Assembly (NCBI GenBank): GCA_951406725.2
Contig: OX597817.1
Span: forward strand, 146,134,001 to 146,198,000
Source: Octopus vulgaris
Lineage: Eukaryota
DNA: 64,000 bases
Direction: 5' to 3'
Each line of letters begins with the position of its first letter. Within the stretch, counting starts at the first letter, position 1. Below the pieces are notes generated by a model. It was not told where the DNA came from, did not search any database, and was given only the letters and a program-made list of their open reading frames with translations. Shown piece after piece: positions 2,409 to 47,400 of this stretch. The position numbers and the translations under genes are program-made.

Positions 2409-4804
2409 TTAATCTATACAGATGACTTCTTCTAGAATCTGGATGTCATCATCCTCATCTAAATCATTAGCTCTTGGGCTTTGACCAACCCTTTGAATTC
2501 TGATTTTGTTACTATTGTAAGCACTATGCCAATTTTTAGTCCTTTGTTGATTGAAGTGTTTATTATGAGATACAGCTGTCTCTGGCTGGCTCCCTACCAG
2601 ATCATTGGCATAGTGTTTAGGGTTATGAGACTGCTCAACACGATTGATAACTTTGAGTGGACTACTTGTGCATATGTCAGGACTCCCTGTATGGAACTGC
2701 TTCAGCACCTGCTTCTCAAGATGACCAACAGATTTAATAATTGGAGCATACACATGCTTTGGACTCACCTGTTGATCACATGCATTGGACAGGTAATTGT
2801 TGCTATCGGAATAGTTTATGTTCTGATTCTGTTTGTTGTAGTTTACAATGACACGCATCGGTGAGTTCTCAACAGCATTAATGTTTGTGTTGTTAATGTT
2901 CTGGTCATTAATGCGTGGATTATTGTGATCAAGTACTTGAAAGTGAGGAATGGACTGCATATGAGAGGGAGGGAACCTAAAACAGGCATCAGGTGGACAC
3001 TGACAAGGACCACACCTACATATTGTACAACGAGTAATCCATGTCTGTTCGTCATCTTCAGAATCTGAAGATATGGTGTGGATAGACACATTGTCATCCC
3101 CTGCTTCATTCACATTTAAGTCATTTGGTGTGTTCGCTTGTGATTTGATTACAAGCTTCAATGGTTCTTGAGAGTTGGGTACAACACTATGAGATGGGGG
3201 CAATCCATGATTAGCAGCAATTTCTAGGTTGGCTTGCTCCTGTGCAATGTTTGCGGAAGAGTCTCCACTAACTGGTATCATCATTAGTGATGATGACGAT
3301 GGACAGTTTTGAGTTTCTGGAGGAATACATTTCATAAGAAACTGTGTGGTGACAGGACTGTTGGAAAGGTTGATGTAAGGTTGAGAACTGATGGGTTCAG
3401 TGTTTAATGATTTAATAGGTTTATAAGGGTTCCTATAATGTTGAGAAGTTTGGTCTAATTTAGGAGGTGCATGATGATTAGTTAAGAATCTAGACAATTC
3501 TGCAGAATGCCTCATTGGGAATGGGTGAGAGTCAGATAGGGGATGTTTTACTGAGGGAACAAACTGATGAACCCCAGGAAGAGATTTGGGTTTCGAGGTA
3601 GAATCGGCAGAGTACACACTCTTATATACTGTCATTGGATGAGGCAATTTTCGTACTTTTTTATGTACAGGACTACCAATTTTGTAATAATGATAACCTA
3701 TTCGACGAACTGGTGTAGATTGTCTATTAGGTGGAAAAGATTTAGAAAACTTTTGAGGAGACCAAGGATACATACTAGTAATATTTTGAGAGTCCTTCAA
3801 GCACTCTCGTTTAGAAGTCCATAAAAGTATTTGATCATGTGTCAAAGGCTGGATGTTTACACGAGCGTCCCTTTTAGGAGCTGTCCATTTCTTAATCTCC
3901 TCTTCATCTAATCGGCGAAGACGCACACTACACATCTTTAAACTGCGTTTAAGCATGCGACTCTGTTTATTCAGTCCTGTCTGAACAAGTTTCATAAATT
4001 CTTTCCTTTGAGCTTTAGTAAATTTGTATTCGTGACTATATTTTGTGTTAATTTTTTTAGAGTTTCTAAAAGTAATTGGATACGTAATTGGTCTGCTACG
4101 TAGTCTTTCTAAAGCATCATTTTTTTCTGGAGTCTTACAATACTGTTCGATATCAGGCAGAGCTTGCAGTGTAGTTTCTGCCTTGACATGCTTCTGAATT
4201 CGCAAGCCAAGTAGAGATGAAATATCAATACAAAGCAATGAATTGGTTTTGGAACTCTTCTTGAATGCATCGATCTCTTCAACTCCATTTCCAGTAGTGC
4301 TATAGCCACTGTCACCATCACTTTCTTCTGTATTTGTCGGACACAAGCGTTTCCGATGGAGCCCAGGCTCTACTTCCCGACTTAGCTGGGAGATCAGGGA
4401 CTTAGGAGTGCGTGGAGAAGTTTGCTGAACAGAGTCCCGGGGTTCAACATCAATTATTTGGCAGTCAACATCTGTATTCTGTCCCAGTTTTAATTTGTCA
4501 GATTTAATTTTCTCAGCTTTGTGAGTTTGGACCAACTGGAAATATTTTAAGAAACCTTCTTTTGTAGATTTCTGGGAATCATCCTCATTCAACAAACTTG
4601 TAACTGGCCGTACAGGTTGTCCTGCATGTGATAGCAGCTTTTTGGAGGAACAAGAGGGAGCTGGTGGGGGCGGAGGAGTTCGCATACCAGGCTGATTATC
4701 TGGACGGTGACTGCAGGCATTTTGGTGAATGCGCATTGCATCTTTATTAGTGAATTCTCTTTCACAGTGATAACAAATGTATATCTCCATGAAACCTGTA
4801 CAGC
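2409..4804 (-). CDS. Terminal coding exon of an uncharacterised nuclear protein (C2HC zinc finger plus long disordered tail; NRF1/EWG-like family)
   Basis: About 800 open codons in AT-rich DNA. Acceptor ttttcttcAG|GC ends at 4805 (phase 1); stop TAA at 2409-2411. C-x2-C-x3-F-x8-H-x3-C finger at 4713-4775. Confidence 0.93.
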
Positions 4805-5466
4805 CTGAAGAAAAAGGTAAAAGAAAAAACAGCTTTAAACTAACAAGAAAATACACACAAATACATATAAATTTGAAATCAATTCAATTCATTCATAAGT
4901 ATACATAAAATAAATTTACATTTTCATCTGAAGGTGCTGCTGGTCAACTAATCTTAATTCAGTATTTTCATTTTTTTAATCTACCCATCAAAAACTCATG
5001 CGAGACTGAATAGCTAAAATTTAACGACTAGTTTCAGTCACTGAGCTGTGGCACAGCCATCAAAAGTCTTAGTTGATCACATCAATGCCTGTACCTATTT
5101 TATAGATCTCTTTTTGCTGAACCATTAAGTTACAGACATAAAGAACAACATTGGTTTTTAGACTGATGTTGTGTGTGTGATATAAACACACACACACACA
5201 CGACAGGCTTCTGCCCAGTTTCCGTCTACTGTACCCCATTCACAAGGTATAGACCAAGCTACGCTTTATAAAAGATATATACCCAAGATAGAGAGATAGT
5301 GAACTTAAACAACATGGCCATACCTGCACCTGATCAACATATTAAATCACTTGAAACACATCAAAACAACCATGTGTACTCAGCTTACTCTCCACTAGAT
5401 CCTGTTACATTTGCCTTTTTATCTTAGCGGCATAGAGATACCCTTTTATAACCCTTAAACATTTAA

Positions 5467-46499: not shown

Positions 46500-47400
46500 T
46501 AATAATCAAGTCTACAGTTTGGGTAATGTCAGTGTGCATGCCCGACAGAGTGTAAAAGATTTAAGAGGAAAACTGTATAAGAGGCATCAGATGTTGTGTG
46601 CAAGAGAGAAGGCTGTGCTGGTTTTGTCATGTGATGTATATGGATGAGGACAGTGTGGTAATAATTACTGTTATTATTACTACTCACAGTTATTGCCATC
46701 ATCTTGCCAGCCAGTCAAAAATGAGGCTTTGGAATGATATTTAAACATGGCTAACTCTTGATCAGCAAGGTTCACGACTAAAACAACTAATGACAGATAC
46801 CCTTGTTCTTAGAAGAGTAATGCCTATTTGCACCCAATTATTTTCAGTCTTCTATATTCAACAATCTCACCAGTTTGATAAAGCAGAATTACTACAATTT
46901 ATTCTTCTAAGAACGAGGGTATGGTATATGTCAATTGTTTTAGTCGTGAACCTTGCTGATCAAGAGTTAGCCATGTTTAAATATCATTCCAAAGCCTTGT
47001 TTTCGGCTGGCTGGTGAGATGATGGAAATAACTGTGAGTAGTAATAATAACAGTAATTATTACCACATTCTCCCCTGCTGAAGAATCTGAGTACCACACA
47101 GCGAGTTCATAAAGTTCTTAGTCATTAAAATGTGTGTGTGTGTGTGTGTGTGAGTTGTGAATGTAACTAGGGAATGGCAGGAATAATATAGGGTATTACA
47201 GAATTTTGGATAGTTCACACCTCAACAATCTCACCAGTTCAATAACCAGAATTACTACAGACAGCTGCATAAAGTGCCGAGCTCTAATTGTGGTGGGTAC
47301 CTGTGGAAGGGGTGGACCCAGGAAGACGTGGGACAAAGTGATGAGAAAGGACTGGGAGATGTGGTGATTTGCCATACTTGATAAGATGCATCAAGTAAAA
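46500..47400 (+). mobile_element. RTE-clade LINE 3' fragment split by an LTR-type insertion
   Basis: RRLCWFCHVMYMDED before 46653 continues as DSCIK..CRALIVVGTCGRGGPRKTWDKV after 47260, the typical RTE ORF C-terminus. Confidence 0.75.
46654..47259 (+). mobile_element. Miniature LTR retroelement (TRIM-like) with an internal inversion
   Basis: TGTGGTAAT...ATTACTACA termini and 5-bp TSD GACAG. A 243-bp LTR, an inverted partial second LTR with an adjacent polypurine tract, and a repeated LTR 3' end. Confidence 0.75.

What the first reader, a model, noticed from the sequence alone, without database searches (positions are those of the whole stretch)
46654..47259. TRIM-like mini LTR retroelement rearranged into a long hairpin
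Seen: a 606-bp insert interrupts an RTE reading frame, with TSD GACAG and TG...CA ends. Its order is LTR (46654-46896), inverted LTR 5' part (46897-47067), ~155 bp unique sequence, then LTR 3' end again (47223-47259). On the minus strand a polypurine tract AGCAGGGGAGAA directly precedes the inverted LTR start, which also contains AATAAA. Inference: LTR-internal-LTR with internal+U3 flipped. TRIMs are mainly known from plants and few animals. If the inverted layout recurs genome-wide it would be a new element architecture (DIRS-like inverted repeats, but with integrase-type ends and a TSD). No clear primer-binding site was seen.
Basis: partly seen in the sequence, partly recalled or inferred. 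Interest (0 to 1): 0.75.

Follow-up and report, generated by a model that had tools for sequence, protein, structure and literature searches.

The report
Folded-back self-priming Gypsy retrotransposon copy
This insert is a dead, shortened copy of an ordinary-sized jumping gene that turns back on itself exactly at its primer site, a site that pairs with the element's own repeat in this family and in many distant relatives, so the lineage likely starts copying itself without tRNA and this copy is likely a preserved copying accident.

Summary
The 606-bp insert, TG..CA ends, GACAG duplication and hairpin are real; contigs of four public runs bridge the central junction. It is not a TRIM or a new architecture. 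The 'unique' 155 bp is the 3' UTR plus polypurine tract of a gag-pol Gypsy family, which lies in direct layout at 10 other loci. The inversion starts exactly at the family's primer site. That site has no tRNA signature and pairs over 13 nt with an LTR segment ending in a poly(A)-signal-like hexamer. In 24 of 33 testable distant relatives (about 14 families, each with its own letters) the leader likewise pairs with its own LTR. A second locus has the same fold-back junction. Best reading: a likely Tf1-like self-priming, non-chromoviral animal Gypsy lineage, with this copy a likely reverse-transcription accident in which the RNA's 3' copy of the primer segment met the primer site. Start site and cleavage are untested. 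This scan noted self-priming signatures in animal Gypsy elements before, on other DNA.

The parts
46520..46653 (+). Host non-LTR retrotransposon fragment, left flank (RTE label not tested)
   Evidence: 39 other scored genomic matches at 88-92%; RVT_1 pieces in copy L216
46649..46653 (+). Target-site duplication GACAG, left copy
   Evidence: single GACAG in 7 of 11 empty host copies
46654..46896 (+). Complete 243-bp LTR, TG..CA
   Evidence: 79-87% to the best full-length family LTRs; solo LTRs with 5-bp TSDs at L047 and L048
46809..46821 (+). LTR segment complementary to the primer site, ending at the poly(A)-signal-like hexamer (candidate self-primer; one mismatch here)
46897..46910 (+). Primer-binding position (one spacer base + 13 nt); also the first bases of the inverted arm: fold-back junction 1
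   Evidence: same leader follows the 5' LTR in 6 of 6 normal copies; bridged by contigs in 4 runs
46897..47067 (-). Inverted LTR positions 1-171, taken from a 3' LTR
   Evidence: joined on its upstream side to the polypurine tract
47068..47079 (-). Polypurine tract
   Evidence: same position before the 3' LTR in direct-layout copies
47068..47222 (-). Last bases of pol, its stop codon and the 3' UTR of the Gypsy family (with a CA/GT microsatellite)
   Evidence: 76-80% to L031, L032, L034; position against the pol stop in L031
47223..47259 (+). Last 37 bp of the LTR (U5 end); junction 2 has only 1-3 shared bases
   Evidence: bridged in run X3
47260..47264 (+). Target-site duplication GACAG, right copy; the host repeat resumes

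Best explanation
The insert is a deleted, partly inverted copy of a gag-pol Gypsy LTR retrotransposon whose primer site pairs with its own LTR, so the family likely primes reverse transcription with its own RNA and this copy likely formed during reverse transcription. Shown: family identity, direct layout elsewhere, junction at the primer site, and family-specific LTR/leader pairing across distant relatives. Inferred: the RNA folds back, RNase H cuts just after the TAAA that ends the paired segment, and that end primes minus-strand DNA. Because the segment lies in R, the RNA's 3' end carries a second copy. Here that 3' copy would have primed, or captured the plus-strand strong-stop end. The plus strand then read LTR, primer site, inverted U3, polypurine tract and 155 nt of 3' UTR. 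A last switch to U5 would have rebuilt a CA end, and integrase inserted the product with a 5-bp duplication.
For: Family: integrase rve E 9e-15 and RT_RNaseH E 2e-11 in degraded copies; relatives are single ~1,150-1,240-aa gag-PR-RT-RH-IN frames, no chromodomain in 4 of 4 scanned. Primer site: 6 of 6 copies with a leader share it, no TGG at the LTR edge, pairing 9-13 nt with their own LTR; 0-2 of 60 shuffles reach the score. Relatives: 24 of 33 testable loci (of 80 fetched) have an 11-19-nt perfect complement; 0 of 30 shuffles reach it in 22 of the 24. Leaders of different families score at most 10 on each other's LTRs. Pairing starts one base after CA in 13 of 14 families and ends in TAAA in 13 of 14. 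Fold-back: second junction at G000:C10 ~83688840 with 44 nt of inverted LTR, E 7e-9; only 2 of 15 pattern hits are such junctions. There both U5-side arms begin near LTR 170, the predicted cut. The window's inverted arm continues into polypurine tract and UTR, not into host flank, so its template was a 3' LTR, although a matching site lies 76 nt away in the 5' LTR (inference). Arms carry 5 + 5 private changes, as expected of identical ends decaying apart.
Against: No transcription start, cut site or cDNA intermediate was observed. A DNA-level template switch gives the same sequence. A TATA-like TATTTAAA about 60 nt upstream of the paired segment could put the start well above it, unlike Tf1. 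Only 8 of 14 families end in AATAAA or ATTAAA. 13 of the 24 positive loci come from one assembly and form 3 families. 9 of 33 loci missed the 11-nt mark (3 pair at 12 of 13). The C10 locus is old, has no clear TSD, and its two U5 arms are only 71% alike. No fold-back was seen in 80 related loci from other genomes.
Confidence: 0.6

Rival explanations
1. Same self-pairing family, but the inversion arose after insertion. A replication or repair template switch used the 13-nt inverted match between primer site and 3' LTR, then switched back into U5, deleting about 3.5 kb.
For: Gives the identical sequence; the family is old and often deleted (L034, L053, L054); junction 2 has 1-3 shared bases.
Against: The nearest matching site lies 76 nt away in the 5' LTR and would have produced inverted host flank. 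The same junction recurs at C10, with arms that start near the predicted cut. The junction is the same in four organism labels, with no direct-layout allele listed, though contigs cannot show absence.
Confidence: 0.25
2. The leader/LTR duplex mainly hides the 5' copy of the poly(A) signal to prevent premature polyadenylation, and priming uses something else (a tRNA fragment or protein). The inversion only exploits the duplex.
For: The paired segment ends in AATAAA or ATTAAA in 8 of 14 families, about 30-77 nt before the LTR end; the predicted stems are stable (windows were chosen around the stem, so z-scores are biased).
Against: The pairing starts one base after the LTR's CA in 13 of 14 families, exactly where a primer 3' end must sit. 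Leaders differ in every family and none starts with TGG. Both roles can coexist.
Confidence: 0.1
3. One reading: a TRIM-like mini element that propagates in an inverted, DIRS-like layout.
For: Under 1 kb, TG..CA, TSD, polypurine tract; a second fold-back junction exists.
Against: No second copy of this layout among 40 scored candidates; 10 loci show direct layout; the internal piece is pol end plus UTR; the C10 locus has another layout.
Confidence: 0.04
4. Assembly artefact at a hairpin.
For: No listed contig spans the whole insert.
Against: Junction 1 is bridged in 4 runs from 4 studies, junction 2 in one; the arms differ at 10 sites.
Confidence: 0.01

Closest known systems
Tf1/Tf2 (S. pombe), Tj1 (S. 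japonicus) and the Tf1/sushi and Tcn1 chromoviruses: self-primed reverse transcription (PMC7175516, PMC4600332, PMC6317226; passages read)
   Same: No tRNA primer site; the bases just after the 5' LTR are complementary (10 nt or more, starting 0-5 nt after the LTR, the criterion of PMC6317226) to a segment of the element's own LTR; Ty3/Gypsy domain order.
   Different: No chromodomain in 4 of 4 relatives scanned; hosts of the relatives include a fluke, tunicate, spider, insects and rays. The paired segment ends in TAAA, often a poly(A) hexamer, followed by RCC. That it is the RNA's 5' end is not shown.
TRIMs, including biv-TRIM of bivalves (PMC6934838: first fifth of the text and passages; PMC10886601: passages)
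   Same: Short, non-coding, LTR-like ends, polypurine tract, TSD; biv-TRIM also lacks a canonical primer site.
   Different: TRIMs have two direct repeats and multiply as short units; this is a single rearranged derivative of a coding family.
Cigr-1 clade, Mag lineage (PMC6238403: passages and supplement rows; it lists Cigr-1 families in an octopus and other cephalopods)
   Same: Short LTRs and one compact ORF fit what I recall of Cigr-1 (recalled, no call).
   Different: No named reference sequence was available, so placement is untested.
Fungal GalEa Conserved Hairpin Site (PMC5445492, passages)
   Same: A structure replaces the tRNA site right after the 5' LTR.
   Different: Copia elements; the hairpin lies inside the leader and does not pair with the LTR.
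DIRS elements (recalled)
   Same: Inverted terminal-repeat look.
   Different: DIRS use a tyrosine recombinase and leave no TSD; this family has a DDE integrase, TG..CA ends and a 5-bp TSD.

Membership tests
TRIM | Two direct terminal repeats | tested here: not met
   Second repeat is split and mostly inverted
TRIM | Multi-copy short non-coding unit with the same small internal part | tested here: not met
   Other copies continue into pol: 430-1,690 nt of shared internal sequence in 9 of 10 direct-layout loci, L061 being broken
TRIM | Under 1 kb, polypurine tract, TSD | tested here: met
Ty3/Gypsy LTR retrotransposon | gag-PR-RT-RH-IN order in the parent family | tested here: met
   gag/PR, RH and IN in order in L039; RT seen only in relatives from other genomes
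Ty3/Gypsy LTR retrotransposon | TG..CA LTRs, 5-bp TSD, solo LTRs | tested here: met
   window, L034, L047, L048
Self-priming LTR elements (works like Tf1) | Leader complementary to own LTR, 10 nt or more within 0-5 nt of the LTR end | tested here: met
Self-priming LTR elements (works like Tf1) | No tRNA-complementary primer site | tested here: inconclusive
   No TGG start in 14 of 14 family leaders or 6 of 6 host copies; not compared with a tRNA set, so tRNA fragments are not excluded
Self-priming LTR elements (works like Tf1) | Paired segment is the transcript's 5' end and is released by RNase H | not testable with these tools
   Only contigs were served; no RNA holder listed
Tf1/sushi chromoviruses | Chromodomain after integrase | tested here: not met
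   None in 4 of 4 full-length relatives; some chromoviruses lack it too (PMC6317226)
Tf1/sushi chromoviruses | RT/IN phylogeny within chromoviruses | not testable with these tools
   No named references held
Cigr-1 clade (Mag lineage) | RT/RH clustering with Cigr-1 | not testable with these tools
   No sequence of Cigr-1 available; 1 paper holds the term
DIRS | Tyrosine recombinase, no TSD | tested here: not met
   rve integrase; TSD present

The most novel reading that the evidence does not exclude
This widespread animal Gypsy lineage uses its poly(A) signal as its primer. One duplex hides the 5' poly(A) signal and, after a cut at TAAA, starts DNA synthesis. The RNA's 3' end can serve as the primer, and the window copy is an integrated fossil in which that 3'-end primer was read through.
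Probability: 0.2. Interest if true: 0.8.

Novelty: new variant of a known kind. Interest (0 to 1): 0.5.

Why it matters
Self-priming is described for chromoviruses (Tf1/sushi, Tcn1) and predicted for one plant Copia lineage. My ten searches of the held library listed no paper reporting it for a non-chromoviral invertebrate Gypsy lineage, or a primer site that pairs with the poly(A)-signal segment; subscription papers and Repbase notes are not held. If right, a broad animal lineage is tRNA-independent, and tRNA-based annotation will miss its primer sites. Fold-back copies like this one would record which RNA end met the primer site, a question that otherwise needs purified particles. The insert itself is dead DNA.

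Tried and rejected
TRIM and DIRS-like readings were rejected. Misassembly was rejected. Expression: no RNA holder listed. Runs of organism E showed family copies but no listed piece of this insertion; this proves nothing. LTR pairs of sister families in this genome (L062-L069, about 50% integrase identity) were not found within 10-kb stretches. Viral contigs gave no relatives. In one search two rows had wrongly placed LTR ends and scored at chance: L164 was corrected, and L168 proved to lie on the other strand. In one search, 47 of the 80 fetched loci were left out because they lacked the element's 5' end or a mapped start. Fold-backs in related loci: none in 80. The C10 inverted arm cannot be followed past LTR 128, because another repeat follows. 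The clade could not be named. Three Tf1 papers were not held. One scanned PDF and one slide file of PMC6238403 could not be read and may bear on clade naming. A search of this scan's notes by protein found nothing.

Full report
OBSERVATION. The insert runs 46654-47259 (606 bp), begins TG, ends CA and is flanked by GACAG twice. Other copies of the host repeat have one GACAG here (7 of 11; the other 4 carry a one-letter variant). The order is as described: a 243-bp LTR, an inverted copy of LTR 1-171, 155 bp on the minus strand ending in a polypurine tract, then the last 37 LTR bases. Contigs from four studies and four organism labels bridge the central junction: X1 with 0 differences; X3, X4 and X7 with 2. 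X3 bridges the second junction. One run may be the source sample, and no listed contig spans the whole insert.

WHAT IT IS. The window lies in a 2.8-Gb genome, called octopus in earlier notes. The LTR has dozens of old copies (82 matches among 40 scored candidates, a lower bound). Their median pairwise difference is 16.7% among 12 aligned arms, and they include solo LTRs with 5-bp duplications. The 'unique' 155 bp matches 6 other loci. At these and 4 more it lies directly before polypurine tract and LTR in ordinary direct layout. Upstream of it these copies encode decayed gag, protease, RNase H and integrase, and the piece starts at the last codons of pol. Relatives at 46-67% integrase identity are compact single-frame Gypsy elements; the named ones come from a fluke, a tunicate, a spider, insects and rays, and none of 4 scanned has a chromodomain. 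The insert is therefore a deleted, partly inverted Gypsy copy, not a TRIM.

THE MISSING PRIMER SITE. In 6 of 6 copies that keep their leader, the 5' LTR is followed by one spacer base and a sequence complementary to an LTR segment 63-75 nt before the LTR end. This holds in two subfamilies with different U5 ends. Window 46897-46910 is both this site and the start of the inverted arm. To test whether the pairing is kept, I fetched 80 related loci and scanned the 33 that had a usable 5' end. 24 of 33 have an 11-19-nt perfect complement between leader and own LTR; shuffled controls reached it 0 of 30 times in 22 of them. Of the 9 misses, 3 pair at 12 of 13 at the expected place and 3 have under 120 nt upstream. 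The 24 loci are about 14 families: 13 loci come from one assembly and form 3 families, and two families are related. Each family has its own letters, and leaders score at most 10 on other families' LTRs. The pairing starts one base after the LTR's CA in 13 of 14, ends in TAAA in 13 of 14, is followed by RCC in 12 of 14, and ends in AATAAA or ATTAAA in 8 of 14. None starts with TGG. This meets the sequence criterion that PMC6317226 uses to predict self-priming (passages). I did not compare leaders with a tRNA set.

RECURRENCE. A junction pattern found a second locus at G000:C10. There U5 and the primer site run on into 44 nt of inverted LTR (E 7e-9). A pattern blind to what follows the site gave 4 hits: 2 normal leaders, the window and C10. 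A looser fold-back pattern gave 15 hits, of which only these 2 are fold-backs. In all I saw 8 U5-leader junctions, 6 normal and 2 folded back; the sample is small and was partly selected for fold-backs. At C10 both U5-side arms lose similarity to the LTR near position 170, just after the hexamer, which is where a strong-stop DNA would end if the RNA were cut there. The locus is old, has no clear TSD, and counts only as a hint. None of the 80 loci from other genomes showed a fold-back.

MECHANISM. Shown: family, layout, breakpoint, conserved pairing. Inferred from Tf1 (PMC7175516, PMC4600332; passages): the RNA folds back, RNase H cuts at the end of the duplex, and the released end primes minus-strand DNA. 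The paired segment would lie in R and so be repeated at the RNA's 3' end. If that 3' copy primes, or if the plus-strand strong-stop end anneals to it, the plus strand reads LTR, primer site, inverted U3, polypurine tract and UTR. That is the window's order. A last switch to U5 with 1-3 shared bases restores a CA end. The two arms carry 5 private changes each and share 3 rare ones, as identical ends decaying apart would. A post-insertion template switch gives the same letters. It is less favoured because the nearest matching site, 76 nt away, would have copied host flank. My odds: Gypsy derivative 0.95, self-priming lineage about 0.75, accident during reverse transcription about 0.6.

COMPARISON. 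It works like Tf1/sushi self-priming by sequence, but membership of that group is not supported (no chromodomain; tree not testable). A Cigr-1/Mag placement is a recalled lead; PMC6238403 lists Cigr-1 under Mag, with families in cephalopods (passages and supplement rows). TRIM and DIRS fail their defining tests. Other papers seen as passages: PMC6934838 (also the first fifth of its text), PMC10886601, PMC3601003, PMC2774666, PMC5445492, PMC5006619. My ten searches listed no report of this pairing in such a lineage; most subscription journals are not held.

EARLIER NOTES. I reached the self-priming reading before looking (notes). The scan had already noted the same kind of signature in animal Gypsy elements of other genomes (e1-8035953, e1-7851694, e1-7814031, e1-7807396), dead-end products in a BEL family (e1-7882470), and ideas about a 3' copy of the primer (e1-7392319, e1-9860081). 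The last two shaped my wording of the 3'-copy route. They are unchecked leads, not support.

VERDICT. The insert is dead DNA, but its breakpoint marks a conserved tRNA-less primer site tied to a poly(A)-signal-like segment, and it may be a fossil of mis-priming. New variant of a known kind; interest 0.5.

Noticed in passing
L075:4626-4883 (G000:C10 ~83688625-83688882): Second fold-back remnant: inverted U5, about 55 nt of unplaced sequence, a diverged forward U5, then the primer site running into inverted LTR 171 to 128. Both U5 arms start near LTR 170; they are only 71% alike.
   Followed up: partly
L168:3786-8200: Young relative with identical LTRs and TSD GTGAC that carries a 1.5-kb internal inversion with a 380-bp inverted duplication; real or assembly error not checked.
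   Followed up: partly
L034:4010-5587: 1.58-kb internally deleted two-LTR copy with a very abundant short repeat inside and TSD ATAAG; LTRs 80% alike.
   Followed up: partly
L035/L036 (G000:C4 ~66.945-66.955 Mb): A solo LTR of this family is carried in five units of a ~2-kb tandem repeat.
   Followed up: no
L053, L054, L057, L051, L052: A second LTR subfamily with a different U5 end and an expanding ~19-nt repeat in U3 keeps the same primer pairing.
   Followed up: partly
L075:3888-4359: About 470-bp palindromic element, 82% self-complementary.
   Followed up: no
G000, e.g. C2:25438383: A young, more distant Gypsy family with many equal-scoring copies and open frames of about 1,080 codons; its primer site was not examined.
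   Followed up: no
window 2409-4883 (-): 824-codon open frame, likely a long exon; no Pfam hit.
   Followed up: partly
window 46654-47067: The two arms fold into a near-perfect 170-bp stem (-159 kcal/mol as DNA); if transcribed it would be an RNA-editing substrate. The arm differences are 8 transitions and 2 transversions.
   Followed up: no
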